Assembly (NCBI GenBank): GCA_000165425.1
Contig: CT868055.1
Location: 1 to 64,000 of the forward strand
Length of the DNA stretch: 64,000 nucleotides
Source: Paramecium tetraurelia
Lineage: Eukaryota
Reading direction: 5' to 3'
Shown here: piece by piece, positions 1 through 23,425 of the stretch
Layout: each line of letters begins with the position of its first letter
Numbering within the stretch: position 1 is the first letter of the stretch
The notes under the pieces: generated by a model
Databases searched by the model: none
What the model was told of the DNA's origin: nothing
What the model saw: only the letters and a program-made list of their open reading frames with translations
Translations under genes and position numbers: made by a program

Positions 1-1090
1 AATTGCAGTTAATTTTTAATTCTATGTTAGAAATCGACTTTTTTATTGTATGATATCCATTTCCTGTAAAAATAACTTAATCACCAGTAAATTCAACTGA
101 AAACATAGGCCTAGGTAAACCTCTATATTCAAGTTTCGAAGAAAATCTTATAAAATTGCAGAGAATAGGCGAAAATACTTTTGTAAAAGATTTCAGCATT
201 CGAACTTTTCTATGGTAATTTGTAGTATATCCTGCCCCCCCTATAAATTGATATTGATTTAATTTTACAATCTTTTATCTAATATTTTGTACCAACACCA
301 TTGTTATCTATAACTACTAACCATTGTAATATATATGTATTCAGAAAATCCATACCGGAAAATGGATAAAACTCTACTCGATCTGCTTGATTAGGATCGT
401 ATACATTAGAATCATAATTTGAAAGCGCTAAAATTGTGTTAGATTAAATGAAGGCTTCATCAATTCCTAAAATAATTTAAAATCCAATAGAGGTTAAATT
501 TTCTGATTTTCCAGGAGAATAGGGGGAATATATTGAAACTATATTAGGAGGTGTTAAAATAACCTATTATAAAATGAAATTTTACTGATAATTAAACCTC
601 TGTAGACCCTTTCTAACTAAAACTTGTAAGTGTAACGAAAGAAGTATCACAATTTGCGTTTGCATAATAATAACTGAGGTTCTAAGGCGGAATCAAATTA
701 AACTAACTGATAACTTATATTCTTTGATCATCAACTGCAAACCACCTTATTTTGAACCTATAGCCTTTCTCATATTCACAGTACAATCGCATAGCAAAGT
801 CTATGATCTTCAATTATACACTTACTTGTTAATGTAATGTCTGTAATGCTAAAATTGAAACCAGAATCATTATAATTTTTACCCCAATGCATCTCTATCT
901 TCTCATGAGTGATAAACACTTGCGGAATATTTGCAAATGAGTCTGAGAATGTTATTGTTGCATCATATATTGATCCTTTACTACAATTAAAATCTGGTAC
1001 AACATCCTTGTTCCAATCTAGATAATAGTTACTATCATATTTTATTGTTGCCAGCCCTATTGGGAATATCAAAAATGTAATAATCAACAT
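1..1090 (-). CDS. Secreted H-type lectin domain protein, copy A (3' end runs off the window)
   Basis: Signal-peptide-like MLIITFLIFPIGLA, then ITFSDSFANIPQVFITHEKIEM..GFNFSITDITLT|NFAMRLYCE..YRFKIRWFAV, matching the H-type lectin pattern (F...F..PPQV...D...ITDIT..GF...W.A). Three tiny introns. Inverted near-copy of 14848-15934. Confidence 0.8.
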
Positions 1091-1394: not shown

Positions 1395-2076
1395 ATTATT
1401 ACAATACAATTCCTTATTTATAACTCGTTGATTAGTGAGTTAATAAACTTTTATTTTTAATTATCACCTTATTTAATAAAATACTAAATTGCAAAAATTA
1501 AGATAATTTGATTGTCTTAAGTCTTATAAAAATTATATTAAAATTTATATAAGTTAACAAATATTATTATCTAAATTTGATCCAAAAGTCAGGCTATATT
1601 AGTCCTATTCAACTTATTTTCGTTTTAAGAATGACTTCATAGATTTATTTTTTCGTTCTTTGAAATAGATAGGGGGTCTCTTTTATTATATAAAATCTCT
1701 TAAGAAAAACACTTATACATAGTTTAGATTATATCTTACTAGAAGAATTCTAATAGATTTTTATATACTTGTATACATTAGAATTATGTTAAAGGCTTAC
1801 CCGTGTAAACAAAGCATATGGATATCCTATCTAACTTTTTGTATACAATTTTTTATTTATTTTTAAAGCTTCAGCCAAATTGATTGTGGATTCTAATCAT
1901 TTTATACACCCCATTATTTAGTTTACGATAAAGTTCTCTATCCTAAATAGGAGTATTGATTCTAATTAGAAAAAACCAAAATTCTATGTCATTATTACAA
2001 TTGCAATTCTTAAAATTTTTATGCTATATTTAATTAAAATTATTTATAAAAAATGAAATATTGTTGTCTAAATTGA

Positions 2077-2806
2077 TCATAACTTTTTTTGAAGATAGTA
2101 ACACAAGGTGTTTATATCATGCTTCATAAGATATTCGCTATTGACCCATCTATTTTTTGGAACAATACCTAAAATAGAATTAGATGATAGTATTACCATT
2201 GGGTCTCTTTTGCCACAATAGATAATACATTTTATGTCCTTTATCCTTTACTTGTACAGCTTGGCCAATCTTATCCAATAGATCTCCAAACTCAAATCCG
2301 CCTTCACATTGTAATTTGATTTCAGTGTTTTTCTGGGATTATTCTGATGTGGATTCTTAAATGATTTCAGAATCCTGCTATTAATTAGGTTACAAAGTCT
2401 TTTCATTCTATTAATTAGTAGTAATTAACTAGACTAATTCATCTTGTTATTTCTTCATTAGATCTATTTCTGACTTTAATTGATCTACCTAATTTTGTAA
2501 TATTTTTATTTGTTCTTATTGGTGTTAATGCTAATTCTATTTGGATTTGCTGGGCACTCCAATAAAATCCTCTAATTGAGGTGGTTCATCATTTTGGATA
2601 TGATAAAAATTCGATCCATTATTTTTAACATTTTCTTCAAATTGGTGCAAAAATTAAGTTAAATTTGGTATCTTGTCTGGTTTCTCCCAGGTGCAATCTC
2701 TGTTATTATAGCCTTGCCATTTGACAAGATAATATTTCTAGCCATTGTATTATTTATAATCAAGTATCTACTCTATAAAATACAATCCTCTCTTTTTTCT
2801 GGACAT
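2077..2806 (-). CDS. HP1-like protein (chromodomain, coiled coil, chromoshadow-like domain)
   Basis: MSRKKRGLYFIEQILDYKQYNGQKYYLVKWQGYNNRDCTWE is a chromodomain. C-terminal YYLLWQKRPNGIVPKNRWVNSEYLMKHDINTLCYYLQKKL* is chromoshadow-like. One intron. Confidence 0.88.
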
Positions 2807-2944
2807 CAATAAATTGGTATTTTTAAATTAATTTTCAATTTATATATATATTAATATGTAAATACTCAGATCATAAGGCTTTTATGATTAGATCACTAAA
2901 AAAATTAGTTTAAATATTTGTGAGTAATAAAAGTATTATATAAT

Positions 2945-3571
2945 TCATTAATTTCTTGAATAAATATTTGGTAATAAAGTTGGATTGTTGTGATGTCTTT
3001 GCATTCTTACATATTCATCGATTTCTAATGACATTTCTTCAGATTTCAACTTGTATCCTTCAAAATCCTCATCAATAAAATTGAAGTTTGGAGACGCAAG
3101 CTATTACTATTTGACTTAGCTCAATCGCTAAACCTGAGGAAACACAAATCGTTATCTCGCTACATGATCAGAAATTGACAAACCCCTGAGTTCCTTTGGC
3201 TTTTAATCCTTGCTTCTTTTGCTTACCTTAGCATTGGGATTGTTCAGAGGACTAGCATTGTTTTCAAGTAATTGATTTACTGATACATTTAGAGGGACTG
3301 AATTCTTTTTTTTTTGTAGCGCAATACTTCCAACTACTCTTTATTAATTGCTTAGTAATCCTGGAGATTATAATTGACTTGGAGATTATTATAAAAAGTG
3401 ATTGTATCTATGTTTGGATATAGATAACTTCTTCTTTCCACTCTTCACAGGTGATGAAATGAATGCATTTCTCAGTAAATTGTCCCTATCCAAATACTCA
3501 TCATACATCAATTCCTATACTATTTTTTGAACTGATCTATTTTAGAAATTATGGGGCAATTAAAAAGTCAT
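2945..3571 (-). CDS. Hypothetical protein (~200 aa)
   Basis: Open frame under code 6 from MTFQLPHNF to ..PNIYSRNQ*, one tiny intron. Confidence 0.6.
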
Positions 3572-3588
3572 AATATATATTTAATAAA

Positions 3589-5743
3589 TCAATTTCTTTT
3601 CTTATTGAGAAGTAATATGATGTTTGTTATATTGAATTTGGTTTTATAATCTTGGAATTCTACCATTTTATCGATCTCAAATAATGAATCAAGATCCTAA
3701 AAACAATTCTGCTGTTATGGGCTGCTAGCAATTATTGAACGTTTAATGATATTATCTGGACTAGTTAGATTTCGTAAGAAAGTGCTACTAATTATAGGTT
3801 CCGTCAACTTATCCGATATAATATCAGCCTATAAAATCTCCTTGTATAAATATTTTGTAGACGGTTGTTTAGTGAGTTGATCCACTCCAATATTGGCACT
3901 GCTGATATGTTCACTTGAGTTATCAGAGAAAGCTTCGAAACTATCAGAACTCTATTCAAATACATTGTTGTTACTCGTACCTTAATAGGTAATCTAATTC
4001 ATATTTTATGATCTTACCTACTAAAATATTGCAGATCTTGACTTTTTGGTCACCTTCCGATTATATCGAGGGTCTCTTTCCTGATAGATCTAATCATAAT
4101 TGAATCTCCTCTTAATATTGAAAGAGGAACAGTTAAAGGTAGGATGAAATGAATCACAAAAATAACATCTAAAATTCAACTTAGATGTATCATTGTTAAA
4201 TATTATGTCATCTTTTATCATCTGAAAAACTTCCTATATTATTATTGCAATGATACCCTTTCTTTCGATTGCTGCAAAATACTAATAAGAATTTGTTTCT
4301 CAATGAAAAAATACAGCACCTCTTTGGAATCGGTTTGCTCTAATTTTACTCTCCCTTGCTATTGATTGTTGATGATTTCAGTCAAACTTAATTCTATAAC
4401 TTTTTGGCTTAATAACTTAATGTGAAATCCCATAAATTCCGCATAAATGTTGCCATTAAGGATTATATATAACCCATCGATCTCCGTACTGCAGATCGAT
4501 TTATAACTTATAAGATAATCACATTTAAAGACTGGCTCTAAATCAAGGATCCATTTTGACTTATTAAATTTAAAGTGCTCGAGGATAAAAATTTAATTTT
4601 TGATAACTCTTGTTTGATCAGTTTCTGTTTCAGATAATTTGAAACCTTATTGATTCTTGACTCCTACTAAATTGTTTGATCTTCCTCCAGGATTTCAAAA
4701 ATTTTTGAGTAATGAATTATAATCAGCTTGCATCTGAAACATATGAGCTATGATTGAAGATAAAGTCGGAATGAGTCTAATAATTATTGATGTTTGGATT
4801 TTTCACTGGTACCCATTAATAGACACTTTAGTATGTATAAAATCAACCCTGCATTAAAAGTAACATTCAATATCATTAACAATTCATTTTCGACCTCCAT
4901 TTCTTCAACTTTCAATAATGATATGAAAAATGCTCTATAAATGGCTTCTTAATATGAAATAAATTCCTAGTTCCTCTCCTGATATTCTATTCTCCACATA
5001 CTACCAAATAGATGAAGTGAAAAATAGATACACGTTAGGATTTTGAAATATTGTTACTGTCTATGAATGATAAATGTAAAAATATACTCATAATTCAAGA
5101 AAGTAAGCAATTTACCAAAATATTTTGATTATTTTAAAATTTCCAACAAACAAGTAAATTGACAAGATCCCAAATGCTAATGAGTTTTCCATGATAGAAC
5201 AAATTGTATAAACTACCAGATTTATAACCTATACAACAGGTAGTTACCTCATCTAATGTTTTAGACTCTAGGAGTACAGTTTAAGTAAAAGTGAGACTAT
5301 TTCAAACGAGATAATCAAAATAGTAATTGCCACTTTTAATTGTGTTGATTTATATCTTTATAATTACAATGATCTTACTTATATTCTTCAAAATAAATGG
5401 ATGGTAAAATAAATGATAGGACTAGTAAAATTGATTTTATTAAATCAGAAAAAATAAATTTTGCTATCCAAAAATTTTCATTTCTCAATAGTTATTAGTC
5501 CCCGTCATTTTGTTTACAATTTTATTGCAATTCGGATAATTTTATTAGATTTTCAGGAATTTCATTCTTTTCACTCTCAGTATCACTGTATTTTCCTATC
5601 GAATGTTAGATCATTCGATCCGTTCCTTATTGCAATTTGTAATGGCTGGCATTGCAGGATTAAAATGAGGGCCAATTCATTGAAACATCATTTGAAGGAT
5701 ATTTAAGTGGTTTATTCCTTTCTAAAGAAATAATATTGTTCAT
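3589..5743 (-). CDS. Ciliate cation-channel family protein with degenerate cyclic-nucleotide-binding domain
   Basis: Hydrophobic N-terminal half, GLYIILNGNI (CNBD-like strand), FQMIKDDIIFNN..CYFCDSFH..C and terminal FEIDKMVEFQDYKTKFNITNII, typical of ciliate CNBD-channel paralogs. Start uncertain (5743 or 5840). Confidence 0.65.
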
Positions 5744-6129
5744 TTCTTGTTTTAAGTATAATATAATTACTCTGGATTATTCTCAAGAATTCCAAATTAA
5801 ATAATTATTAATCATATAGATATTTAATAAACCAATACATATGGCGAATTCTTTTATGTCAATTTTTGGCTCTGTTAATCGAAAAATAGTTTTTGTAAAT
5901 AAACCATTTATTAAAAAATATTACATTTGTTGTTGAAATTATATTTAAAATCAATTTTAACAAAATAATCAACTTAGAATTATTAGATTATCTAAATATT
6001 GATAAGTACAAAAGTATTAAATTCATATTTTTATAATTTATTCGTTTCTAACTTCATAATGTGCTAAAAAAAGATAATTTTATCACATCATCAAAAGTTT
6101 TGATGTTGAAAACATATTTAGTAAAAATC

Positions 6130-8282
6130 ATGTTGCAAGACGCTTACGATTTAGGTTAATAAAAATTAATATATCCTTAAGATAAGAAAATAGCATTAAA
6201 TTTTAGATCATTTTATTGTGAATATAACAATATTCATAAATCAAAATGAAAAATTTAGAATAAGAAAATGAAAAACTTCGAAAGGCTATAAAAGATAAAA
6301 AGCAACAAATATCTGAAGCAAATACGACGATACTACAATATCAAAATAGTATTGAAGAATATGATCAAGAAAAATAAACAATTATACAGGATATAAATGA
6401 GTTAATCAATAAAAAAGATAAAAATTTTGATAAGAGAATTAAGGGAATTATAGAAAGACTTCCTTGCTAGATAGAACAGAAAAGTTTATAATATTTGACA
6501 AAATCTATTATAAATAAAGGATTGAATGTGTTGAATGATCTGAATATTGCCTATAAGAATGCCTACAAAGAAGAATACAATAAGTCTTAAGATGCAAAAC
6601 CCTAACCCTTAATAGAATCATATTTTATAATTATACTTAAGCATAAGGATATTACGGATCTGTAGAAAGAGGAGACAATATTGAAGCCGAAGTTTTTATA
6701 TCAACTATGCAATTCAGGGTGGACATCAAAAGAAAGAGAAAGCTGGGTTGACTACTAAAAGGATATAATAACTCATTTCGATAATAATTATGTTGTTGTA
6801 GAAAGACTAGATGATATTTCAAAAATATAGAATTTAATTACTAAGTATAAAATCAAAAATAATTTAGGTGTCTAAATAAATAAGATGTGTTATAAGAAAA
6901 CTCTTTTATTTTTAATCTCCAAGGTTCATCATTTGATGAGTAGGTGCCAAAAAATATTGAATTGTTAGCAAGTGTTAACCCAAACAAATAATTGTTCGCC
7001 TTTGTCTAGGGTGTTGATGATTATATTACAAGTTTTTCAGATGAAGGGTTTTCTTATTGGCCGTGTAAAAAGTACTATTGTTTTTTGACATATTTTCCAA
7101 TCCCTGAAATATTTGATCAACTTTTAAAATTCGCATCCAGTATTTAAGTTTTATATCATATTTAGACTTAATTTAAGCATCTAGATTGGAGGCAATTATA
7201 AAATATTAAGACTATATAAATTAAAGATTGTAAATGACATTAGAGGAGAAAAATGAATATAACTAAAAAATATATTAGGATATAGATGCAGTTAATATTC
7301 ATTATGTATTTACAAATTTTAATTTTAGAGAGTAGAAAGTATTATGGAAGAGTGTATCAAATTATTAATGGGCTAATATCTCGATTTTGATAAACCAAGC
7401 ATAAATGTGGACTTGTAAAGTAAGTTACCTAATACCTTCAATGTTACACAAAAAACACTAATTTATTCCTTACCAATCTAATAAAGGAATATGAATATTC
7501 CTGAAAACCTTAAACAAATAAGGTATGAAATAGTAAAAAATAATAACATTAAATATGCTCATGTTGTGCAACAGATCTTCAACTTTGATACCTTTATTAA
7601 AATCTTTCAGGAGATCTTAAAAGAAGGAAATATTGTATTCTACTGCCAAAATCTCTATATTTTAACCTCTGTTTGTTACTTCTTTCATTAAATAATTTAT
7701 CCCTTCATATGGTTTGATGCAGCAATATACTATTCAAATCGAGAGAAATTAAACATATTGGTTGAAAAAGGTAGGTTTATAATAGGAATTAATACAACTT
7801 TTTATAATAATAAAGCAAACTAAAAAATAATTGAATCTAAAAATTTGATGATTGTAGATTTAAAAATCAAATAGGAAAAAGAGGGCTTCAAAGTTTAGCC
7901 GATCATACACTAAAATAAGCCTGGCAACATTGGGTTTTCAGTATTGACAAGGCAATTTTTTTAAATCAAATAACTTTTGAAAGATGAAAATGTTCCAGCT
8001 TCTATTTTCTAATATTGTATCGATGCAAATCAAGCCGCTAAATGTAGAGATTTCTTAGAATGCATGATGAAATTGATTTAGAATTGGTTGATTGACAGAA
8101 TTGTGCCAGATGCAGATCCCGATTTTACAATGGGCGGGTGGAATGATGGATTTATAAAATAAGTGGTTAAAAATAGGCTTAAGGATGATAAAGATATAGA
8201 CTTTATTTTGGAATATATTTACATTTCCAATTATTTTTAAAAGTATTTGAAATCGAAATACAATTATAATGATCCTAATTGA
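6130..8282 (+). CDS. DENN-domain protein with N-terminal coiled coil
   Basis: FIKIFQEILKEGNIVFYCQNLYILTSVCYFFHQIIYPFIW...FIIGI resembles the cDENN core. Start approximate. Confidence 0.7.
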
Positions 8283-8313
8283 ATATTAAAAATAATTAAT
8301 ATAAATATTAATA

Positions 8314-8646
8314 ATGAATTCTGAAAAAGATTTCCAATATGACATCCATGATGTATAAAATATTAAAACTGCCTTTTTGGATTTATAACAGGAAGAGAGC
8401 ACTGGATTTAAATTGGGATTAGGAGCTGCTATTTTCTCTTACTTTGCATTAAGAAGATTTACATATTTAAGGACAGGACCAAGGTATTGATATTGATTGC
8501 ACTATTTAAGATTCGTCGGATCAATGATCTTTGGCTCTTAAGTATATGGCTTCTACACCCATAGATCTAGAGCATATTATGATTATGTGGCTCAATAAGT
8601 AAATTTGCATGCATCCGAAGCAATTAATCAATGCCTTGGACATTGA
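8314..8646 (+). CDS. Small (~100 aa) two-helix membrane protein
   Basis: MNSEKDFQYD..GFKLGLGAAIFSYFALRR..FVGSMIFGSQVYGFY..CLGH*, one 27-nt intron. Confidence 0.7.
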
Positions 8647-8702
8647 CTATACGATCATTTATCAATATAAAATACAAAATAACATATCTATTGTATCCTG
8701 AA

Positions 8703-9622
8703 TCATAATAAAAACTCAAAGTCAGAATTCTTTATTCCATCTCCAAAATAAGCATATCCAAATGTATAGTCATTGTTATAAGTGACATAGCCTGGCCAAA
8801 TCAAATTCCTTAATGTTATCTGATTCTCATAATAAATAGAATTACATTTCTTTGTGTTGAATCTGCTTGCAAAGACCATTATTGATTAGGAGTGTCATCC
8901 ACTAAAGAGTCCAAGAAATCTTCCCTATACAGAGCCTCATCACGAGCTTTATGATACAATTTCAATTCTACCTATTAAGTCCTGCTTATCCTTCCTTGTG
9001 GGAACTCTAAAATGTTAATAATTTTTTAATTCAGCTTTCACTCCCTTAAATGCCTTTCTGATTAATTCGTGAGTAGGTGTCAAACGGTAGGATCCCACAG
9101 GTATTGATGCACAATTGAATTCAACCTACTAAACAACATAAGACAGTCTTTCTAATTCTGAAAAGTGTTTAGCTGGCAGTTACGCAGGGATGTCCAGAGA
9201 ATCCTCAAAATTGATCTCCTCTTCTGTCTTGAACACAATATGTTCATGCTAACCTGTAAAGGGCTCTCTTAAGTTGTCTGCTCTTGATGCATATTCTTCG
9301 TTATATTTTGGTAACTCAGCAAAGTGATAATTATTCGAACTAAATACATTCATCTCTAATTGCATACCTCCAATAGAATTTTTTTAATGGGAACTCGTAT
9401 TACCCTTTATATTGAATTCCCATCGCTATATAATAGTCTTTTTCTACTCCTTCCACTCTTCCCCAAAACAATACTTCATCAAATGTATAATGCTCTTGAA
9501 TCTTTAGAATTGCCAATTTTAGTTTTATTCTACCCTTAATATTTCAACCTATACCTTTCTTCCATATTCAAAGTCTACCCTATCTATTAAATGAATTTCA
9601 AGTCATTAAAGGAGATATCCAT
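8703..9622 (-). CDS. RSPH9: Radial spoke head protein 9
   Basis: LFWGRVEGVEKDYYIA, ELERLSYVV..ASIPVGSY, LRNLIWPGY..FGYAYFGDGIKNSD motifs. Confidence 0.9.
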
Positions 9623-9822
9623 TAAAATAAATAATAAAATATTATATAATATATTTAGTTTGTGAGAGCTTCAAGTGTTTTTAAGATAGCCTCTATGATG
9701 AATGATTAGTCATATCTTAGTTATCACACGGACTCATTAAGGAATGATTATATTGTATAGATTAAATTTGAGATATTTAGATTTGTTTTAATTACCGAAA
9801 AAGATTTGTATTAATAATTAAT

Positions 9823-10778
9823 ATGGCCACCAAAAGAAAGTATTTAAGGAATGTAGTTGATAACTAAAAGCCTGAAGAGAACGTCATCAGAGTGACAAAT
9901 CGTGTCTAATCATCAAACTATGTTAGAAGAGCTTTGTGGCTATTCTAAGGGACTCGTAAAGAAAATCAACCACCTGCCTTCGATACTGTAATTATAACTG
10001 CTATTGATAACGCTATTACAAAGGCGATTATTATATCTGAAGTTGTAAGAAGAAGAATAGCTGGCTTATACTAAATTAATACCATTAAATAGGTTGAAAT
10101 CAATGAAGTTTATGAACCACTGGAGGAAGGACTAGTGACTGTTAATGTTTCTAGAAAATTAGCATCTTTCTAGATTAAATTAACTAAGACACCAACTGAA
10201 CAAGAAAGAAAAGAACCAGGATTTCATGTAATGAATTAAAAATTATAATAAAGGAACTTTTACCACCTGATCAAATTTAAACAACTAGACCTGAAAGATA
10301 AAGATCTCCAAGAGGAAATAGAAGCAAATCAGATAACAGAAGAAATTACAGCAATAGAAGAGATGATAGAGATGACAATAGAGTTAATAGAAGAGATAAT
10401 AGAAGAGATAATAGAGATGATAATAGAAGAGATAATAGAGATGATAGAAGAGACAAAAGAGGTGATAGAAGAGATAACAGAGATAATAGAAGAGATAATA
10501 GAGATAACAGAGATAACAGAGATGATAGAAGAGATAACAGAGATAACAGAGATGATAGAAGAGATAATAGAGATAACAGGGATAACAGAGGTAACAGAGA
10601 TAATAGAGATAACAGAGATAATAGAGACAATAGAGATCATAGAGATAACAGAGACAATAGAGACAATAGAGATCATAGAGATAATAGAGAGAAGAGAGAT
10701 AATAGAGATAATAGAGAAAGAGATAACAAAGAAGGTGGCCAACAAAAAACAAGGGGTGGGGTTAAATAATAATAATGA
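9823..10778 (+). CDS. Alba/Rpp25-like nucleic-acid-binding protein with (RDN)n tail
   Basis: VIITAIDNAITKAIIISEVVRRRIAGLYQIN..EVYEPLEEGL..PGF is an Alba-domain pattern. One intron. Tail of RD[N/D/H] repeats. Confidence 0.88.
10355..10730 (+). repeat. Coding tandem repeat of AGAGATAAY (9/12-nt units; Arg-Asp-Asn)
   Basis: Directly visible. Variation falls mainly at third codon positions in the RDN frame. Confidence 0.95.
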
Positions 10779-10936
10779 GTTCATTAAAAAGATATAGCAG
10801 AATCACAGTCTCATCATTTCTCCCTTTCTCCTTTATTAACATTTAAACTAAATGTTTTAAATTACTTTCTCCTATTATATCTTAGAGTCTTAAAAATATA
10901 TAAAATGTATTAACATATGTGTTAATATATAATATC

Positions 10937-12502
10937 TCAAATACCTTTCTCTTTTTCTTTGGTTTCCTATTCTGACTTAATTTTGTCAATTAATTCATGA
11001 AATCTTTTTATTTTTTCAATATAGTCAAAGTAATCTCCTTTCTACCTCTTAAAGTTCACGCATATAATATTCTTCCTGGTTTCTAATTGTGCTATTTCAG
11101 CTTTCAGAATTGTTGGTGTTTCACTTTCAATTATTAACTATAATAATCTAAGAATACTTACACTAAACTCATATTTTTCTGATTCTTTCTAGATTTTTAA
11201 ATTATATTCATTATCCTCTAATTATTTTTTTAGCAAATCCATGAATAAATTTGGATTTATACTGATTAAATAACTATCAGATCTTATTAAATCAACCTAA
11301 AATTATATTAAAAAAAAATACAGGTATTAATTTTATAGAAATATTCTAAATTTACTCTATCTCCTAATTTTCTTATTCATCTGAATCTGATCTAAACTAC
11401 CCCAATCCTCCTTATACTAAAAATCACTATTATTATACATATTGATTTATCATTGCTGATAATATTTTTCCCTTTATTAATTTAGCGAGTTAAGGTTTCT
11501 TTTATAATGCATTATTCAATCTTTTTTTACTTTGAAGAAAACTCTCTAACCATCTCTTCTGTGAATTCAGAATTACACTAAGTCCATGGGTGATTATAAA
11601 CTTCACTTAAGGAGAGTCTATTTTTTGGACTATCTGTCAACATTCCTTGTATAAGGTCCCTAATGTAAATAGTTAAAATGATAAAAAACTTAAAGTCATC
11701 AGTGAAAGCAACATTTTGATTATCGATTTACATTAGTTTCCAGATTGCTTGGGGTGCAGTTTGAAATCCTGAAAAATTTGGATTTGTCTTCTCAGTGTTG
11801 GAGAATATAGGTCTTCCAACCATCAATATAAACAAGATCATTCCTAGTGCAAATATATCTTTGCTTTATTCATAATTGTTGTTCTCCTTAGCCCATGATG
11901 GAGACTCAAAAGCTATATACTGTTTAAGATTGTTTTTACAATATTTTTTTTTTCTTATCTAATTCAGTCCTAACTCTCCAATTTTAATGGTTTTAGCATC
12001 AGTAAAAAAAATGACTTCTGCTGTCAACTCTCCATGATATATTCCTTACTTATGAATTGAGATCAATCCTTTAAATTATTAGTTTTATTACCATCAACAA
12101 GTTATTTAAAATAGTGTCTGGCTTGTGCTTCATGAAATTTTCCTGTTTAGAATAAGTATTCAAACAGTTCCCCTCCCTTTGGATATTCATATATAACACA
12201 TGATCTAGACATTGTGGTGCTATTTTTTTTCTTATTGTCATTATATAAACTATACTGTGTAGATTCCTTCATTTCTAATTTATATGATCTTAAGAATGGA
12301 AGGATGCTCTAAGTTTTGGATAATTTATAATTGTTAAAGTTAATCTCTCAAGCTGACATCGAAAAAATTGAGCAAAAAGTATTGCCCTTGATTATTTTTC
12401 CCTATTTTCACTTTGTACTATTAATGATAGTCATCCTTGTACCTCCTTGCAACCAAAATAATGTTAAATCTCAAATTCATCATATTTTGCTTTTGTTTAC
12501 AT
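10937..12502 (-). CDS. CAMK/SNF1-like pseudokinase
   Basis: LEHPSILKI, YEYPKGGELFEYL..FHEAQARHYFKQL, DIFALGMILFILMVG are kinase-fold motifs. Catalytic motifs are replaced (HGELTAE for HRDLKPE, ELG for DFG). Confidence 0.85.
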
Positions 12503-12607
12503 TAGTTGTTTAAACAAAAATTATAAAATCAATAAAATTCTTTTCTTATTTCCCTCGCTTAATATCAAAAAATATATAATAAACTTTATATCGTCTCAAT
12601 AGTTACA

Positions 12608-13708
12608 ATGATGAATAATAAATTTAGAATTTATATTTTTAGTATTAAACATATATATAGGATTGTTAATTGATATAAATCAAGTTTCTAGTAATTAAAT
12701 TTTAGACTAAGGAACAAAACGAAAAATTAAGAGTTTTTAGACAGTTCTCAATAATATTGAATAAATTCTCTATAAGCAAATATTTTTTGCTATAAAGTAC
12801 TTAATTTAAATAATTTTTATCCTCGATCTTTCGGTTTCATGCAAAGACTATATAATTTTGAGGATGGTAGTGTATATGAGGGATAATGGTCGAATAATAA
12901 ATAGAATGGGCAAGGTAAATAGATCTATCCTGACAGCAGTTCTTATGATGGGAATTGGAGTAATGGCATGAAGAATGGGAAAGGAATTTACAATTTTTCT
13001 GATGGTAGTTAGTATTCTGGAATGTGGAAGGATGATCAAAAGCATGGTTTAGGGAAATATAAATATAAAGATGGGAGTTATTACGATGGAGAATGGCAAA
13101 AGAATGTTTAACAAGGAGATGGAAAGTTTGTCAATGTTGATAATAGCCAATATGAAGGGTAATGGGTTAACGGAAAGAAACATGGGCATGGCAGATACTA
13201 TTATGTTGATGGAAGCTTTTATGAAGGAAAATGGGAAAATGGTTAAAAGAATGGATTGGGAAAGATGTAATATAAAAATGGAAGTTTTTATAAAGGATTA
13301 TGGAAGAATGATCAAAAGAACGGAAAAGGAATCTATAAATAATTAGATCGAAGTTGTTATGAAGGGGAGTGGTTGAATAATAAGTAAAATGGTTTTGGTA
13401 AACAAACTTATTAAGATGGGAGTATTTATGAGGGGGATTGGATTGATGCTTAGAAAAATGGGAATGGCAAATATAAATATCCTGATGGTAGTTACTATAA
13501 TGGATAATGGAAGGATGGGTTCAAGCATGGGTTTGGAAAATATAAATTTACTGATGGCAGTTCATATGAAGGTGAATGGGTAAATAACGTACAACACGGA
13601 TAAGGAGTCTTCATATAGCAAGGAGTATTTTAAAAAGGCATTTGGTTTAATGGAATGTTAACCGATATTATTAGTTGTGTTACATCTAGAAATAGCATAG
13701 AACTTTGA
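12608..13708 (+). CDS. MORN-repeat protein
   Basis: About 11 repeats of DGSxYxGxWxNxxKxGxGKY (23 aa period). Start approximate. Confidence 0.9.
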
Positions 13709-13780
13709 TATTAAATAAATTAAATGCGCCTGCTCTGTATTCATTTTTAATATCAATTATTTTGTAATCTTTATTTATTT

Positions 13781-14358
13781 TCAAAATTGTAATTGTTTTT
13801 ATAAATGCTGGACTTGGTTATCAATATCTTTCTCAAAGTGTTTTAGAGATTACTCAATATATTAATTTTCTGCCACAATTCTGCTATATTCACTTTAGAA
13901 TTACTAATTCAATTGTTTCAGATTGTCTATTTACTCTATTTTGTCTATATATTTACAGTTTGATAATTTTCAAGAGCAGCATCTTAATCTTATGATTTCT
14001 TGGTCGCATCTCTTTGAGATTTGTATAATTCTAACAAAGGAATTCCTAGAACACATGAATACACAAATATATCTGCAAATAAATCAGAACCTACATTTAT
14101 TCAAATATTACCTTTAGTTAAGGCTGCTTCATCAGTCAAAGGTTTAAAAAACATTTCTTAACTTTTTATTCCAATAGATTTTCGATTTAAAAAAGTCTCA
14201 AAATTATGGTATTTGTTTCCTAGGAACACAAAGCTAGTTTTTATAAGACTTGGCTTTCTTGATCTATGCTTATTCAATGCGTATCTCTTAATTTAATTCG
14301 ACAAAGGTCTTGAGAATGTACGAATCAATAAAGAAGCTAATTTTTATATTGGAATCAT
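13781..14358 (-). CDS. OPA3: OPA3-like protein
   Basis: MIPIQKLASLLIRTFSRPLSNQIK..PLTDEAALTKGSDLFADIFVY..LLELYKS followed by a coiled coil. The 3' splice and end are approximate. Confidence 0.8.
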
Positions 14359-14517
14359 TTAGTATTTTTAATAACATAATTTTCATAAATAAATTTTAAA
14401 TCATATTATAATATATCATTATTCAAAAGAGAAAAAACTATTCATATACAAATATGAGTTATCAATACTTATTTCTTAACTTTAATTGTAGTAATTATAA
14501 TATTATTTAATAGGGAA

Positions 14518-14525
14518 TATAAATA
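14518..14525 (+). promoter_or_regulatory. TATA-like element at -28 of 5S (also 16517-16524 and 1415-1422 on minus)
   Basis: TATAAATAAGGAATTGTATTGTAATAAT is identical upstream of all three 5S copies. Copy 1 homology ends exactly at TATA. Confidence 0.75.
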
Positions 14526-14545
14526 AGGAATTGTATTGTAATAAT

Positions 14546-14666
14546 GGTTGTCGGCCATACTAAGTCTAAAGCACCGGATCCCATTCGAACTCCGAAGTTA
14601 AGCGACTTAAGGCGAGGTTAGTACTAACGTGGGGGACCGCTTGGGAAGTCCTCGTGTTGACAACCC
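14546..14666 (+). rRNA. 5S rRNA gene, copy 2
   Basis: Same 5S sequence, followed by a T7 terminator at 14667-14673. Confidence 0.97.
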
Positions 14667-14847
14667 TTTTTTTATTATTATTTTGCTTATTTTAATTAAA
14701 TTATCTTTAAACATCATTAAACTGCATTATTTACAATTTGCTTTTATCAATGTGTAAAACTGAATATCATCCATTTTTTAAAATTATCTTTCTTAAATAA
14801 GCTCATTTAAACATTGTTTAATTAGTGTATAAATTTATTATTTTATT

Positions 14848-16194
14848 ATGTTGATTATTACATTTCTGATATTCTCAATAGGGCTGGCAACAATAAAATA
14901 TGATAGTAACTATTATAATTAATGGAATTATAATGTTTAATCTGAATTTGTTTGTTGGGGAGGAGCCAGATTTGACGCAACAATAACATTCGCAGACACG
15001 TTTGCAAATATTCCCCAAGTTTTTATCACCCATGAGTTGATAGATATGGATTATAGATAGTTTATTACTTCTGGTTTCAATCTTAGCATTACAGACATTA
15101 CATTAACAAGTAAGTGTAAAATTTTTAATTATAGACTTTGTTATGCATTTGTACTGTGAATATGAGAGAGGATATAGATTCAAAATAAGGTGGTTTGCGG
15201 TTGATGATCAAAGAATATAAGTTATCAGTTAGTTTAATTTGATTCCGCTTAAGAACCTAAGTTATTATTATGCAAACGTAAATTGTGATACTTATTTCAT
15301 TACAATTACAAGTTTTAGTTAGATAGGGCCTACAGATGTTTAATTATCCGTAAAATTTAATTTTATAATAGGTTATTTTCACACCTCCTAATATAGTTTC
15401 CATACTTTCCCCCTATTCTCCTGGAAAATCAGAAAATTTAATCTCTCTTGGATTTTAAATTATTTTAGGAATTGATGAAGCCTTCATTTAATCTAACACG
15501 ATTTTAGCGCTTTCAAATTATGATTCTAATATATACGATCCTAATCAAGCAGATCGAGTAGAGTTTTATCCATTTTCCGGAATGGCATATGTCAATGATC
15601 ATTTGTTGTAATGGGTAGTAGTTATAGATAACAATGGTGTTGGTACAAAATATTAGATAAAAGATTGTAAAATTAAATCAATATCAATTTATAGGGGGGG
15701 CAGGATATACTACAAATTACCATAGAAAAGTTCGAATGCTGAAATCTTTTACAAAAGTCTTTTCGCCTATTCTCTGCAATTTTATAAGATTTTCTTCGAA
15801 ACTTGAATATAGAGGTTTACCTAGGCCTATGTTTTCAGTTGAATTTACTGGTGATTAAGTTATTTTTACAGGAAATGGATATCATACAATAAAAAAGTCG
15901 ATTTCTAACATAGAATTAAAAATTAACTGCAATTGTATCACTGGTAAAAAGATTAAAAGTAAATTGTTTAAATGTCAGAATTGTCCTGTAAATTAAAATA
16001 ATTATTAATTTGAACACTCTTGTTATGGAGCCATTAATTTATTATTTATTAATGCTCGATTTATAACTTAAACTACAGCCATTTAAGAATTATAAATTGA
16101 TATTACAGCTACAAGTTGTAAAATTACTTAATTAATCTACCATTAACAAAAATAAACCTATGTAATTGTTGATATATAAATCATTGATAGTTGA
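14848..16194 (+). CDS. Secreted H-type lectin domain protein, copy B (complete)
   Basis: MLIITFLIFSIGLA..ATITFADTFANIPQVFITHELIDMD..GFNLSITDITLT..RFKIRWFAV. Tiny introns. Ends ..IVDIQIIDS*. Confidence 0.82.
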
Positions 16195-16483
16195 ATAAAA
16201 ATATATGATTTAAATTAGGAATAACAATAATTTTTAATTTATACTGCATCATTGTTGTGCCTTTTTTACCTTCAAATAATTATAACATACAATTATTCTT
16301 AAATCTATAATATTCAAAATTTATTATGATCATATGAGCACATCATTGTTTTACAAAAATAACACTTAAAACAACATATTATGTTGGAATGTTCATTTTA
16401 TTTTATTTGAGAGTTTATCAATAATTCAGAATTAAATTGGTTTTTTTCTAGAAAACCAAATTCTTAAAATCTCCTATATTTTT

Positions 16484-16677
16484 ATTGTAGTAATTATAAT
16501 ATTATTTAATAGGGAATATAAATAAGGAATTGTATTGTAATAATGGTTGTCGGCCATACTAAGTCTAAAGCACCGGATCCCATTCGAACTCCGAAGTTAA
16601 GCGACTTAAGGCTAGGTTAGTACTAACGTGGGGGACCGCTTGGGAAGTCCTCGTGTTGACAACCCTTTTTTATTATT
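16484..16677 (+). repeat. Direct repeat of 14485-14679 (5S gene plus ~60-nt 5' flank), 1999-nt offset
   Basis: ATTGTAGTAATTATAATATTATTTAATAGGGAATATAAATAAGG... is identical in both. Homology ends 6 nt after the terminator. Confidence 0.95.
16545..16665 (+). rRNA. 5S rRNA gene, copy 3
   Basis: Same 5S sequence with a T6 terminator. Confidence 0.97.
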
Positions 16678-16805: not shown

Positions 16806-17849
16806 TCAATAATTTAATTTCAATAATAAATAATCATTTTGATAAATGGAGAACCTATTACTATTCTGTTTGATCATCTATTCCAAGTATTCATTTCTTG
16901 GCAGATCTCTAATCCTCATCAAAATATCATAGTCATCAAGTTAAGAGAGAAGATCATACTCATAATCATCGATGTCATTCGAATTCTATAAAGAAAATCT
17001 TGAATAATTCATTATTATGTCATCAGCTAATTTTTATTCATCAGTGCGACCATCATACGGCAAGCAGTGTTGTAAGACACATTAGATATCTTCTTAATCA
17101 TGTACGAAATTATTTTCATAATCTTTGATTTTAGTGAAAATACAAATTTAGGAGGCATAACCATTCGTAAGGTCTCCAGATTTGTGTTGACCCACTCCCT
17201 CATAGATTGTTGAATAACGATATTTTGAAGCAAGAGCAGATGTCCATTCTAAAAATTCCTATTATGAAAACTCGAATTTGTGATCTGGGTGCCTCAAGAC
17301 AAACTTGGGGTTAAGCTATTTAAAATAGACATTGAAGTCAGAATTTGGAGTTGTAATGATAATTCTTTGAGGATTCAAATATCCAAATACATTTTCACAT
17401 AAGTCATCCAGTTATTCTAATTGCAAATGTTCTACCACCTCTATAAGTGTGATTAACTATATTTCGTATAATGAACAATACTTCAAAATTCATCTATTTG
17501 AGTTGTTTGTATTTCTTTAGAGCATTTCCATGGAACAATTTAATCCAACATTCTGATTTTCTATTTGATCTTAGACAGTCTTAGATCTGATCGTATACTA
17601 TGTTATCACTTCGATTAAAATGAAATTTTACCAAGCTTCTTTGAGAACTTCGAGATCTATGTCCAATCCAGCGATGAAATTGAAATCTAAGGAATGAGCT
17701 AATCTTTAAATAAATTTGCCATCATTGCATCCGATATCTAATGTTCTTTCCTTCTCTATATATTTATCCAGTTGTTGATGCCTTCTTTCCCATAGTCTCA
17801 TCCCCATATTGTCATAAAAAATATCATTTTCATAAGCTTTAATTTCCAT
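16806..17849 (-). CDS. HEN1: Small RNA 2'-O-methyltransferase Hen1
   Basis: LDIGCNDG (SAM binding), GLDID, IEVVEH, ITTPNSDFN, LRHPDHKFEF..EF..W, YEGVG: the Hen1 signature motifs in order. Confidence 0.93.
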
Positions 17850-18034
17850 TACTCCACTATTTAGTTAAGTTTATTTTAATAATAATTCCTGTAATTTATT
17901 ATCTGAACTATTAATGAGAAAAACCAAATCTCATTAGATTGAAATCCAATTTATCATTGTAATAATAAGGAGTAAAACAAGAATAAACAATGTTCTTTTA
18001 TTAGTAATGAACTGCTAACACACATAATTAAATA

Positions 18035-19060: not shown

Positions 19061-20455
19061 TCAAGTATAATAATAATTTTTGATCGCTGTTAACACAATG
19101 CAGAATGCTTTCTATACAGCTTTCTTATTATTATTTTATACTAGTGATATATAATAAAATCATGCTTTGCCTTAAGTGAAAATTTTGACAAATTCTTCAA
19201 AGCTAAATCTCAGCATCTTAGTCTCTTTAATAAATAAGAAAGCGTCATAGCCGCATGATTATCCCTCCATCAATAGATATGGATAAGCCAAGAGTAAGTT
19301 AGCTTTGGATATCAACAGTTTGTTTGGTTGAGGTTCTCGATTCAGTAAACATTTAAAGATTGTTAAGAAATTAATAGTTTATCTCCTGGTTATTTTGTAA
19401 TCCATTTGAATTTTGTCAATATTTACATTCTTCATAAAATATCTACCCTTAAAATTCGTTTTTAATTGAAAAGGACTACTAACTGAGGATATTTCTATGC
19501 TTCGAGATGAGGGTATGAACAAATTGGAGCATTCAACTTGCTCTTAGATTTATTATTGCAAATCCTCAGGATTGGTGATATTTTCCTATAAGATTTATTT
19601 TTCAATGGATTGTCTTGTCCTCGTTTTGATGTTTAATCTAATTAATTTATTTTATTTTTAGGAATAGTTAGATTTGCCATTCATCTCCTTATTCAATTGT
19701 TCAAAGATCTGCACTTTGGTTTTCTGCTTTTCAGTGTCCAACATAGCAAAGGCTGTATCGATCTCATGATCATCCAGATCAATTTTGGGTTGTACATTTT
19801 GTATGTATGGTAGTTTGTTAATATTCATGGTAAAGTATTATTTTATTGTGCTTTTGTTATTAAAAAAGAAGTCAAAGATTTGAGAGGAGTTTTAGAATTA
19901 TGAGATATCTTGATATAGTGAGTCGAGTAAGTTCATTTGAAAGGAACCATTAAATTAATTGTAATGAGCAATCATTTTCCAGAAATCAAAACTGTTATTT
20001 ATATAAAATACTTTCTAATTTGGCAAGTGAAAATTTTTAATCTGAGTGCCATCTAGAGTCCAAATTTTTGGAGTGGATTTTAAATTCAAAAGGGTTTTAA
20101 GATGCATGGATTGTTCAATAAAATCTGAAATGAGCTCATTTTCATTGTCAATTTTTGAATACAGTGGAATGTAATACTTAAATACTTTGAAATTGTTAAT
20201 AATGAAAACTTCTTAAAAACCTTGTTTCTTGTTAATTCCTTTATCAATTATTTTGTGTCTCACATATTTGATCAATCTCTCTGATTTCCATTGATCCTAG
20301 TAGGATAATTTATGGAAATAATTTGATTTATTGGATTCTGTTACTTGTCTTCTTGGGGTATGAAAAACGGTGGGGGAATTGGCAATGTTGTTTTACTCAA
20401 CTTGGAAGGATGTAGCAATTTTCAAACGAGGAACGCTGTTAAATCTTTTATTCAT
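19061..20455 (-). CDS. Hypothetical protein (~460 aa)
   Basis: Long open frame under code 6 starting MNKDLNSVPRLKI. No family recognised. Confidence 0.6.
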
Positions 20456-20645
20456 TTATTAAATAATTAATATATTATTTTAAGTGCATATGATAATTAG
20501 AAACCTAAGGGGTTGTTGTTATTAAATGCATAGAATTGTTGTAAAAATAATTTATCGACCAATTATGATCAACATCCATTAATTATTTATAAATTAGAGA
20601 ATAATAATATTAATATCATTATAATATCATATAGATCATATTTAA

Positions 20646-21109
20646 TCAATTATTATGTTATTCTTGCTAAAGAATAGATTTTCTTTTAGAATTTTCCTCA
20701 ACGATTTATTTGACCTGACTCTTCTTTCTCATTTAATCTCGTTTAACAAACTCATCTACTTTACGAAATTATACCCAAGCCTTGCCTTCCATCAGATTGT
20801 CCAACTACATCTTTAAATGATTGAGTGTACCTCTTCAAAAATCTCTTTGTCCGAATATCCACTCTTCTTGACTATTTCCCAGAAGGCCATCCACTCATCC
20901 TCAGTAATCTGGCCACTTTTATCAAAATCAACTGCATTAAACAATGCTTGAGTATTCACTTTGGCAAAATTGGTTTTCCAAAACTTTTGAGTTTCATCCT
21001 TGTCAATAGAACCAGAATTATTGACATCAATTTTCTTGAAAATCTCTAATGCCTTTTATCTTAATTGAGGCGACAAACCTTAAGATTGTTTTTGAGCTCC
21101 ACAACCCAT
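20646..21109 (-). CDS. Small N-acylated EF-hand protein
   Basis: MGCG start, two EF loops DVNNSGSIDKDE and DFDKSGQITEDE, one intron. Confidence 0.88.
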
Positions 21110-21128
21110 TATAATAATTAATTAAGTA

Positions 21129-22321
21129 ATGGAATTCTTTGTAATTCTTACCCTCCTGTTCTTGGTGATAGGTGCCTCCTTGTACTTGTTAGTCTGCGTA
21201 GATCCCAACTCCCCAGGATTGCTGGGGATGATGAACAGATTCGTATTCAACACCATCCCAGCGATATTCAAGTAAATTCAAGAGTATTACCTAGGAAAAT
21301 ATTGGGAGAACGCATCTTCAAAGTATTTTCAAGAGGAATAGATTATTTCTTCTATTCAAACCATCCCCTAGTTTAAATATTCTATGTATTGGTCGCAGTG
21401 GGAGGCTATTTGGTTTATCTGTACTTTGGATTTCTTGAATTATTCAATAACAACCCTTTAGTATCCCACCTCGACACAGCAATCGGATCAACAATGGCAC
21501 TCTTTTGTTTCTACTCCTTCTTTCAAGCATGTCGATACAAACCAGGAATAATAAATAAGGAGAACAACAAAGAGTATGTCAATTAATACAAGGAGTACTA
21601 TGACAATGTGGTGTATTTGAAAGAGAATCATTGCAAAACGTGCAACATCATCAAACCAGCAAGAAGCAAACATTGCCGAGTGTGCAATGTGTGTGTTAGT
21701 CGCTTTGACCATCACTGTGTATGGATCAGATAATGTGTTGGGTAAAAGAATTACAAGTACTTTGTCAAATTCATCATCACCCATGCCATCCTCTGTGATT
21801 ATGGAGCTTATTTGGGTTTCCGTTGCTTATGGGGAATCATCATAAAAGAGAAACTCCTAGAAGCACAATTCAGGTAATTTATTGATGTTCAATGTAGAGA
21901 TCCTGTGACAAAGTAGAGATTGTAAGCCACTTGGGGAATCATAGCACAATATTTGTTCTACAAAAACACCATGTACATTTTCATTGTCATTCTGTGTATC
22001 GTAATGGGCATTGCATTGACATGCTTTGCTCTTTACCATCTCTATATGATTGGATAGGATACCACTACTAATGAAAGAATGAAGAGAAGTGATTTCTTGA
22101 ATTTCTTTGATGAAGAGACTGAACGTTTAGAAAAGCAACTTAAAGATGCACAAACTCCAGAGGATATTAAGTAGGCGACTACTAAATTGGAATAAGTCAA
22201 ACAATGTCAATAAAAGATCATCACAACCAAATCTATAGGAATTTGGAGGGGATTGAAAAGTGTGTTTAATGAACCAGATGATTTGGATTAGAACCCTAAA
22301 GTTAAAAATAAAAAAAGATGA
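21129..22321 (+). CDS. DHHC palmitoyltransferase
   Basis: [37 protein letters not shown] and a TTNE motif. Confidence 0.95.
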
Positions 22322-22934
22322 TGAATTAATAATGTGTGTGTTCTAAGCATTCAATTACATATTTTTTATTGATGTCCTTGAGTGTGGAGATTCAAAAATA
22401 TTTTTAATTTAGTCTTTTAGTAATCTTAATTGAAAATGAAAATAGTTGAGAATCTCTCATTAATTTTAATGAAGTTTTCATCTATAGAGTTTATAGTCAG
22501 CAAATTTGTTCACACTTTTAATATCAAATCTAATTATGCAATGTAATTTATTCTAATTAATTATTTCATTTTTAAATAAATATAATAATATTAAACATAA
22601 AATACAATGCTGCTCTAGCCTATAAAAATAAATTAATGTAGTCAACATCTTGATTATTGAATTAATTATAATAAATTATTTTTAATAATAAAATGATTCT
22701 ACTACCATGATAGTATTGGAGACCATATTATACGTACCTTAATTATCATGAATAATGAAATTGATTGCATTGTAATATTAATAAGTGATGAAAGAGTGAC
22801 CATTTTTATATGATCTTAAGACACTGTAATAAATTATTTGGTGTAAGATATTACTTTAATCTATAAGAGTTAAATATATTATAATTTAATTACATTAATT
22901 ATAGATTTTATTTTTATTAAATAATTATTTATTT

Positions 22935-23378: not shown

Positions 23379-23425
23379 TCTTAATTGTCCCTATATTTAT
23401 TCTTAGTACATAAAATATATACATA

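What the first reader, a model, noticed from the sequence alone, without database searches (positions are those of the whole stretch)
14917..15620. Hypervariable patches in otherwise near-identical lectin paralogs
Seen: the copies differ mainly in three short coding blocks. Block 1 is LDWNKDVVPDFNCSKGSIY vs NQWNYNVQSEFVCWGGARF. Block 2 is KIEMHWGKNYND vs LIDMDYRQ-FIT, with a one-codon indel. Block 3 is MDFLNTYILQWL vs MAYVNDHLLQWV. W, C and G anchors are kept. By contrast the ~320 nt following block 3, including an intron, differ by one synonymous base, and the non-coding spacer is better conserved than these blocks. Inference: diversifying selection or segmental gene conversion at ligand-binding loops, as in variable recognition receptors (prey, symbiont or self recognition).
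Basis: partly seen in the sequence, partly recalled or inferred. Interest (0 to 1): 0.78.

Follow-up and report, generated by a model that had tools for sequence, protein, structure and literature searches.

The report
Lectin twins kept different at tips
Two old duplicate genes of a Paramecium secreted lectin-like protein keep copying sequence onto each other except at three loops on the predicted binding face, a known route to new binding specificity, seen here in an unstudied ciliate protein family.

Summary
Two Paramecium genes form a 1.4-kb inverted repeat; they differ at 29 of 42 residues in the three blocks and 21 of 295 elsewhere. The interpretation needs turning round. P. octaurelia has the same pair. 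Outside the blocks, copies group by species (30 sites to 1); inside, by paralogue (6 to 1). The duplication therefore probably predates speciation, gene conversion homogenises the framework, and the blocks are islands it fails to erase (the Teshima-Innan pattern, as in red/green opsins). Copy A carries the derived type. No donor cassettes were found, and dN/dS in the blocks (about 1.2) is not significantly above 1. AlphaFold2 (pLDDT 90) predicts a secreted protein with three beta-sandwiches packed as a single-chain pseudo-trimer plus a fourth domain. Domain 1 is an H-type lectin domain; domain 3 probably is. Strand topology puts all three blocks on the end where H-type lectins bind ligand, but the canonical Arg is missing, so GalNAc binding is not implied. 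Equivalent loops in a control pair are conserved, arguing against mere floppiness. The ligand is untested. Earlier scan notes describe similar patterns only in bacterial genomes. Verdict: new variant of a known kind.

The parts
14848..16194 (+). Copy B gene (ancestral type), 423 aa in code 6; exons 14848-15109, 15135-15349, 15372-15666, 15695-16194
   Evidence: RNA-guess contig X17 has 75 gap bases = 25+22+28 and X18 has 50 = 22+28
1..1090 (-). Copy A gene (derived type), 338 codons, cut by the contig start; exons 1090-826, 800-586, 563-269, 240-1
   Evidence: annotated as P0008 with different, probably wrong, intron choices
14917..14973 (+). Block 1 of B: loop between strands 1 and 2 of domain 1, with the conserved Cys36
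15037..15069 (+). Block 2 of B: strand 3-4 hairpin of domain 1, aligned with HPA Asp55-Arg63
15582..15617 (+). Block 3 of B: the equivalent hairpin of domain 3; Gln stands where 10 of 16 distant paralogues have Arg
15293..15337 (+). Minor cluster of differences, codons 141-155, strand 3 and hairpin of domain 2 (6 replacements)
965..1021 (-). Block 1 of A
866..901 (-). Block 2 of A (one codon longer than in B)
318..353 (-). Block 3 of A
15618..15934 (+). Near-identical tract after block 3 (matches A 1-317): one synonymous difference; most recent conversion tract, or partly an assembly effect at the contig end
15110..15134 (+). Intron 1 of B; 6 of 25 bases differ from A (introns 2 and 3: 1 of 22, 0 of 28)
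14547..14665 (+). 5S rRNA gene inside the right repeat arm, 182 nt upstream of B
   Evidence: Rfam RF00001
1275..1393 (-). 5S rRNA gene inside the left repeat arm, upstream of A
16546..16664 (+). Third 5S rRNA gene; with 14547-14665 it brackets B as a 199-nt direct repeat (98.5%)
1423..14517 (.). 13-kb spacer between the inverted arms; its left part runs opposite to the sister scaffold C678, relative to the genes right of B

Best explanation
A and B are old duplicates of a secreted Paramecium H-lectin-domain protein. They arose before P. tetraurelia and P. octaurelia split and lie as the arms of an inverted repeat. Gene conversion between them keeps overwriting the framework within each species. 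Conversion across the three blocks is selected against, because these loops sit on the binding end of a single-chain pseudo-trimer and set what each copy binds. B keeps the ancestral specificity and A carries a derived one. The blocks also keep changing faster than the framework, which suggests episodic selection for new ligands. Shown: the sequence pattern, the switch in tree shape, the fold of domain 1, and (as a prediction) the four-domain build. Inferred: conversion as the cause, selection as the reason for the islands, the three blocks sharing one face, and any ligand. The most likely ligands are surface glycans of bacteria met in feeding; a peptide or protein ligand is about as open.
For: Four-sequence test (tetA, tetB, octA = P0007, octB = P0014): 31 sites group by species, 30 of them outside the blocks; 7 group by paralogue, 6 inside; 0 give the third grouping (7 vs 0, p=0.016). 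AU test: the species tree is rejected in the blocks (p=0.021) and the strict paralogue tree outside (p=1e-45). Independent check: blocks defined in tetraurelia predict where the octaurelia pair differs, 22 of 43 against 26 of 381 (p=2e-12). At the 6 in-block paralogue sites primaurelia has the B residue 6 of 6 times. Silent divergence is higher in the blocks, 3 of 9 against 14 of 268 unchanged-residue codons (p=0.013). P. octaurelia P0010 is a natural chimera: B-type at 3 of 3 diagnostic sites in residues 92-97, A-type at 23 of 23 from residue 150 on. The spacer is inverted relative to the sister scaffold. Model pLDDT 90.4, pTM 0.86; its best structural matches over residues 16-278 are single-chain trimers, and domain 1 matches HPA and discoidin. 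Control: the homologous loops in another tetraurelia-octaurelia pair differ at only 4 of 38 and 5 of 38 sites, against 19 of 42 and 19 of 43 here (p=0.001 and 0.003).
Against: Only 7 paralogue-type sites, one of which (71) depends on gap placement. Among sites where tetA and tetB differ, paralogue-type sites are not significantly enriched in the blocks (6 of 29 vs 1 of 21, p=0.22), and the runs test gives p=0.07. The longest silent-identical run is not significant (p=0.31). The primaurelia pair is 98% identical with no enrichment in the blocks (2 of 43 vs 8 of 381). No DNA of other species was available, so all cross-species tests are on proteins. Synteny across species is inferred only from shared contig length and close accession numbers. 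Domain 3 as an H-lectin fold is only suggestive. The canonical Arg is absent from domains 1 and 3. Distances between blocks were not measured, as no coordinates were returned.
Confidence: 0.7

Rival explanations
1. Neutral version: the duplicates are old and converted, but the blocks are just tolerant surface loops. They drift fast, and once diverged they block further conversion mechanically. No change of function is involved.
For: dN/dS in the blocks is about 1 (pN 0.41, pS 0.37; p=0.81). The blocks are loops and are somewhat less conserved across the whole family (0.34 vs 0.42 top-residue frequency, p=0.02). Intron 1 is also diverged.
Against: The same loops are conserved in other orthologue pairs: 4 of 38, 5 of 38, 1 of 39, 2 of 39, 0 of 38 differences. 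A-type residues have been kept in two species while the rest turned over.
Confidence: 0.13
2. Recent, independent duplications in each species followed by strong diversifying selection on the blocks, with convergence to similar A-type residues.
For: The framework groups by species. Orthologues also diverge faster in the blocks (19 of 43 vs 55 of 295; 19 of 42 vs 63 of 381).
Against: It needs 7 convergent sites with none of the third pattern, raised silent divergence in the blocks, and the same multi-copy layout arising in three species.
Confidence: 0.1
3. Cassette-type variation: the blocks are pasted in by segmental conversion from a library of donor sequences, as in antigenic variation.
For: Sharp block edges; at least 44 H-lectin matches in the genome; a chimeric copy in octaurelia.
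Against: Block 1 of B matches only itself, and the block 1-2 stretch of A matches only A and B. The nearest other paralogues are 29-43% identical. Block types are stable across species. Block 3 was not searched alone, and germline-limited DNA is not in this assembly.
Confidence: 0.04
4. Copy A is an assembly artefact or an allele of B.
For: A lies at an unfinished contig end, and its missing 3' part was not found elsewhere in the assembly. One DNA-run contig spans all of B unbroken.
Against: A has its own upstream flank, and an A-type gene exists in octaurelia beside a B-type gene. An artefact could at most explain part of the near-identity in the last 317 nt; the octaurelia pair is also 92 of 96 identical there.
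Confidence: 0.03

Closest known systems
Neofunctionalisation under gene conversion (Teshima-Innan signature): human red/green opsins; Drosophila CG18281/CG17637 (PMC3924837 and PMC2588116, passages read)
   Same: Old duplicates; many sites shared within species, with paralogue-shared sites concentrated in local peaks of divergence.
   Different: Here there are three peaks that are far apart in sequence but predicted to share one face; orthologues also diverge fast inside the peaks; no functional difference has been shown.
H-type lectins: Helix pomatia agglutinin (2ccv), discoidin I/II (2w94), SLL-2 (3wmp); Pfam PF09458
   Same: Domain 1 passes the Pfam cut-off, aligns by profile (E 4e-8 to 6e-4) and by structure (Z 5.1-5.8; rmsd 2.3-2.5 for HPA and discoidin). 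The variable loops are at the pocket end.
   Different: Known members are homotrimers with three equal sites. This protein is predicted to hold three unequal domains in one chain plus a 140-aa Cys-containing fourth domain. Domain 1 lacks the residues aligned with HPA Arg63 and Trp83.
CofB of enterotoxigenic E. coli (PMC6048534, passages read)
   Same: An H-type lectin fold with altered pocket loops.
   Different: CofB binds a peptide and not GalNAc; it shows that the fold alone does not fix the ligand. No homology to this protein was tested.
Single-chain pseudo-trimers: PCSK9 C-terminal domain, perforin-like APC-beta domain, engineered single-chain C1q
   Same: Three beta-sandwiches around a pseudo-threefold axis (Z 5.0-7.0, 180-219 residues aligned).
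   Different: rmsd 4-5 and 4-8% identity: a shared arrangement only, not homology.

Membership tests
H-type lectin | PF09458 domain above the curated cut-off | tested here: met
   50.3 bits against 24, residues 44-112; exon 1 of both copies passes
H-type lectin | Six-stranded beta-sandwich like HPA/discoidin, domain 1 | tested here: met
   Z 5.8, rmsd 2.5, 93 residues to 2w94; Z 5.1, rmsd 2.3, 87 residues to 2ccv; Foldseek probability 1.00 to SLL-2
H-type lectin | Same fold in domains 2 and 3 | tested here: inconclusive
   Domain 3 alone: HPA/HAA at Foldseek ranks 2-4 with the highest probability (0.47-0.66) and TM (0.48-0.52) but E 1.3-1.7; discoidin Z 3.8, rank 41 of 50; no profile match. 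Domain 1 vs 2: E 0.006, probability 2.5%
H-type lectin | Canonical pocket residues (HPA Arg63, Trp83, Tyr89; role recalled for HPA, DscA W235/Y241 from the preprint) | tested here: not met
   Domain 1: Arg position is Gly, Trp position is Glu, Tyr kept. Domain 3: Trp kept, Arg position Gln; distant paralogues have Arg in 10 of 16 and Trp in 9 of 16. Hence filed as an H-lectin-domain protein, not as a GalNAc lectin
H-type lectin | Homotrimer with sites between protomers | not tested
   The model suggests an intrachain pseudo-trimer instead; oligomers were not predicted
H-type lectin | Binds Gal/GalNAc | not testable with these tools
   Needs a glycan array
Duplicates neofunctionalised under gene conversion | Duplication older than speciation | tested here: met
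   7 paralogue-type vs 0 third-type sites; AU p=0.021 in the blocks; moderate strength, proteins only
Duplicates neofunctionalised under gene conversion | Abundant within-species shared sites in the surroundings | tested here: met
   30 of 31 such sites lie outside the blocks
Duplicates neofunctionalised under gene conversion | Paralogue-type sites clustered in the peaks | tested here: inconclusive
   Fisher p=1.7e-5 is partly circular; stricter tests give p=0.22 and 0.07; the peaks do recur in octaurelia
Duplicates neofunctionalised under gene conversion | Functional difference mapped to the peak | not testable with these tools
   Needs binding assays with block swaps
Cassette-based antigenic variation | Library of donor segments for the variable blocks | tested here: not met
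   None for blocks 1-2 in this assembly; germline DNA not available
Cell-surface recognition receptor | Transmembrane segment or hydrophobic anchor tail | tested here: not met
   The best hydropathy windows are the N-terminal signal (1.68); internal maximum 1.31; the C-terminus is a beta-strand in the model

The most novel reading that the evidence does not exclude
The locus is a small recombining recognition module. Each chain carries three unequal binding sites, and recombination between the repeat arms shuffles domain 1 against domain 3 to make new composite faces (as in octaurelia P0010). Copy A may also be kept in only part of the somatic genome copies, so that clones could differ heritably in which ligands they recognise.
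Probability: 0.12. Interest if true: 0.75.

Novelty: new variant of a known kind. Interest (0 to 1): 0.48.

Why it matters
How ciliates tell food, symbionts and self apart is poorly known at the molecular level (own knowledge). This pair points to about 40 residues, picked out by evolution in two species, as the specificity determinants of a large Paramecium family (at least 44 domain matches in this genome) for which my searches found no paper. It gives a direct experiment: swap three loops and assay binding. The predicted single-chain pseudo-trimer would be a new build for H-type lectin domains. The evolutionary mechanism itself is textbook.

Tried and rejected
Donor cassettes: none found for blocks 1-2. 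The missing 3' end of A: not found elsewhere in the assembly. DNA of relatives for dN/dS: the metagenome scan confirmed none of 587 candidates, and a profile search added no new close relatives. Positive selection by dN/dS: not significant. Silent-run test for conversion: p=0.31. Profile similarity between domains 1 and 3: none. ESM Atlas: scores 0.80-0.84, leads only, with H_lectin clusters among them. Whole-model Foldseek: nothing at E<=0.001. A lectin beside the syntenic 5S in three paralogous regions (C678, C671, C43; 80 kb fetched): none by tblastn, best E 0.28. General 5S-lectin linkage: rejected from the two coordinate lists. Read cover of copy A: in run X1 the bins over 1-1120 show depth 7.7-9.6 against 63-143 in the bins from 1681 to 9520, and no spliced A contig is listed in X17 or X18, but these are contigs and the table was cut, so this shows neither absence nor silence. 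X20 (another organism) gave depth under 3 in the two bins that lie wholly inside B. Literature: searches found no paper on this family; the library lacks most subscription journals; no supplements were read. The HPA structure paper was not held and a search for its residue numbers found nothing useful.

Full report
Setting. The window is the start of contig C72 of a 72-Mb, 697-contig genome. It reads in the ciliate code (table 6) with introns of 22-28 nt, and the database names the annotated product of one copy as a Paramecium tetraurelia protein. The finding lies in copy B (gene 14848-16194, +). Copy A (1090 to 1, -) is its partner in a 1.4-kb inverted repeat, 91.7% identical, that also holds a 5S rRNA gene in each arm. 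A is cut by the contig start, and its missing end was not found elsewhere. My exon model of B gives 423 aa. Contigs from two runs guessed to be RNA carry gaps of 75 and 50 bases over B, matching introns of 25+22+28 and 22+28, so B is spliced as modelled. The database version P0006 has a shorter first intron and two more residues.

Observation. The blocks differ at 29 of 42 residues against 21 of 295 elsewhere, and at 51 of 126 bases against 38 of 885. The clustering exceeds permutation (p=0.00085). The 96 codons and intron after block 3 differ by one synonymous base. The spacer upstream differs at 13 of 181 bases. Not noted before: a smaller cluster at codons 141-155, and intron 1 with 6 of 25 differences.

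Relatives change the reading. Searches returned close relatives from P. octaurelia (P0007, P0010, P0014, on contigs of one length), P. primaurelia (P0009, P0012, P0013, likewise) and P. sonneborni (P0011). In the alignment P0007 shares the block types of A and P0014 those of B, while outside the blocks the two copies of each species resemble each other. Of 38 informative sites among the four, 31 group by species (30 outside the blocks), 7 by paralogue (6 inside), none the third way. Likelihood tests on six sequences reject the species tree for the 43 block columns (AU p=0.021) and reject the four alternative trees for the 295 other columns (p from 3e-4 to 1e-50). Because the blocks were defined from the tetraurelia pair, the Fisher test (p=1.7e-5) is partly circular. 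Stricter versions are not significant (6 of 29 vs 1 of 21, p=0.22; runs test p=0.07). A non-circular check is strong: the octaurelia pair differs at 22 of 43 block residues and 26 of 381 others. At the six in-block paralogue sites primaurelia has the B residue every time, so A is the derived type. The two full primaurelia copies are 98% identical and both B-like, with no enrichment in the blocks (2 of 43 vs 8 of 381), though 6 of their 10 differences fall at residues 231-246.

Signs of recombination. P0010 is B-type at residues 92-97 and identical to P0007 from there on, a chimera if the assembly is right. Against the sister scaffold C678, window 2041-7176 runs in reverse while 19153-27920 runs forward, which is what a crossover between the arms would give; misassembly is not excluded. 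Silent divergence is uneven: 3 of 9 unchanged-residue codons differ in the blocks, 13 of 175 in the framework up to block 3, 1 of 93 after it (p=0.013 and 0.039), though the longest silent-identical run is not significant (p=0.31). Gout et al. state that conversion is common among Paramecium paralogues and single-gene duplications rare (PMC10195154, passages).

Selection or tolerance. In the blocks pN is 0.41 and pS 0.37 (dN/dS about 1.2, p=0.81); outside, pN 0.033 and pS 0.080 (p=0.004). So dN/dS does not show positive selection. Orthologues do diverge faster in the blocks (19 of 43 vs 55 of 295; 19 of 42 vs 63 of 381). In a control subfamily with a tetraurelia-octaurelia comparison, the homologous loops differ at only 4 of 38 and 5 of 38 sites (p=0.001, 0.003), and three primaurelia-pentaurelia pairs show 1 of 39, 2 of 39 and 0 of 38. 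Some other paralogue pairs show the same excess as here (P0015/P0021 27 of 39 vs 92 of 356), others do not (P0016/P0027 p=0.09; P0024/P0039 p=0.29). The loops are thus not simply free to drift; they tend to be conserved within a lineage and to change between paralogues, as specificity-setting residues do.

The protein. Pfam H_lectin covers residues 44-112 only. The family has 50 representatives at 50% identity; of the ten I looked up, nine are named Paramecium and one is unnamed. The genome has at least 44 H_lectin matches. AlphaFold2 on a 41-sequence alignment gives pLDDT 90.4 and pTM 0.86, with a signal helix, three sandwiches (about 16-114, 115-197, 198-281) and a fourth domain (284-425). 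The best structural matches over 16-278 are single-chain trimers (C1q head Z 6.7, adiponectin 6.4, PCSK9 C-terminal domain 6.0; rmsd 4.2-4.6), middling scores that speak only for the arrangement; domain 1 matches discoidin I (Z 5.8, rmsd 2.5) and HPA (Z 5.1, rmsd 2.3). Domain 3 folded alone (pLDDT 78) has HPA and HAA as its most probable Foldseek matches (TM about 0.5, E 1.3-1.7) but nothing clear by VIA-align, so its assignment is likely, not shown. There is no membrane segment: the protein is probably secreted or luminal.

Where the blocks sit. Block 1 is the loop between strands 1 and 2 of domain 1. Block 2 is the strand 3-4 hairpin, aligned with HPA Asp55-Arg63. Block 3 is the same hairpin of domain 3, and codons 151-155 that of domain 2. 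With up-and-down strands and five-residue linkers, these loops should all point the same way; this is inferred from topology, since no coordinates were returned. Discoidins bind sugar in a groove between neighbouring H-type domains, using W235/Y241 (bioRxiv 10.64898/2026.06.18.733164, passages), and HPA has its sites at the end of each trimer (PMC8431231, passages). That Arg63, Trp83, His84 and Tyr89 form the HPA pocket is recalled; the paper was not held. Domain 1 keeps only the Tyr; domain 3 keeps the Trp and has Gln for Arg, where 10 of 16 distant paralogues have Arg. GalNAc binding is therefore not implied. CofB shows the fold can switch to a peptide ligand (PMC6048534, passages).

Mechanism. 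Most likely (0.7): duplication before the tetraurelia-octaurelia split; change of the binding face in A; continued conversion between the arms that homogenises the rest; loss of conversions that would erase the face. This is the pattern described by Teshima and Innan and applied to opsins and Drosophila transporters (PMC3924837, PMC2588116, passages). Rivals: tolerant loops without functional change (0.13), recent duplication with convergence (0.10), donor cassettes (0.04; none found), artefact (0.03).

Novelty. The process is known. Searches for Paramecium or ciliate H-type lectins returned no study of this family; the hits I read concern Toxoplasma (PMC9670195, passages), Acanthamoeba (PMC11377244, passages) and a Paramecium transcriptome without the word lectin in its main text (PMC5814942). 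Other listed papers were seen as listings only, and no supplements were read. Earlier scan notes had nothing on this genome or sequence and similar patterns only in bacterial genomes. New here are the ciliate example, replicated in two species, and the predicted single-chain pseudo-trimer. Verdict: real, new variant of a known kind, interest 0.48.

Noticed in passing
window 1-2117: In DNA run X1 one contig spans all of copy B unbroken (14717-16513, depth 59), although A shares long identical stretches, and contig depth falls from 63 (2088-8772) to 19 (1465-2117) towards the contig start. This hints that A is rare in that run's somatic DNA; contig depth cannot prove it.
   Followed up: partly
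window 15405-15406: Runs X1, X17 and X18 all read two other letters here, giving B the Tyr codon that A and the relatives have: a strain difference or an assembly error.
   Followed up: partly
window 14481-16677: Copy B is bracketed by two direct 5S repeats (199 nt, 98.5%). The syntenic 5S on C678, C671 and C43 has no lectin gene beside it in the stretches fetched. The genome has at least 26 dispersed 5S genes.
   Followed up: partly
window 1423-14517: The spacer between the inverted arms is flipped relative to the sister scaffold C678: true inversion, flip-flop or misassembly.
   Followed up: partly
window 849-882 and 241-268 (-): The public annotation of copy A (P0008) appears to splice out part of block 2 and read through intron 3, so its sequence departs from all relatives there.
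   Followed up: yes
window 16809-17930 (-): A gene with methyltransferase-like motifs that resembles the small-RNA methylase HEN1 (recalled); the two unspliced frames gave no Pfam match.
   Followed up: partly
window 12761-13705 (+): MORN-repeat protein (Pfam E 2e-65).
   Followed up: yes
window 4491-4520: Run X1 differs from the assembly at six bases and a 2-base gap in this short stretch; not examined.
   Followed up: no
window 39541-45063 (-): An intron-free frame of 1841 codons in code 6; not identified.
   Followed up: no
proteins P0031, P0070, P0069: A second same-scaffold pair of this family in P. tetraurelia (93% identical) shows no excess of differences in the homologous loops (1 of 38).
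   Followed up: yes
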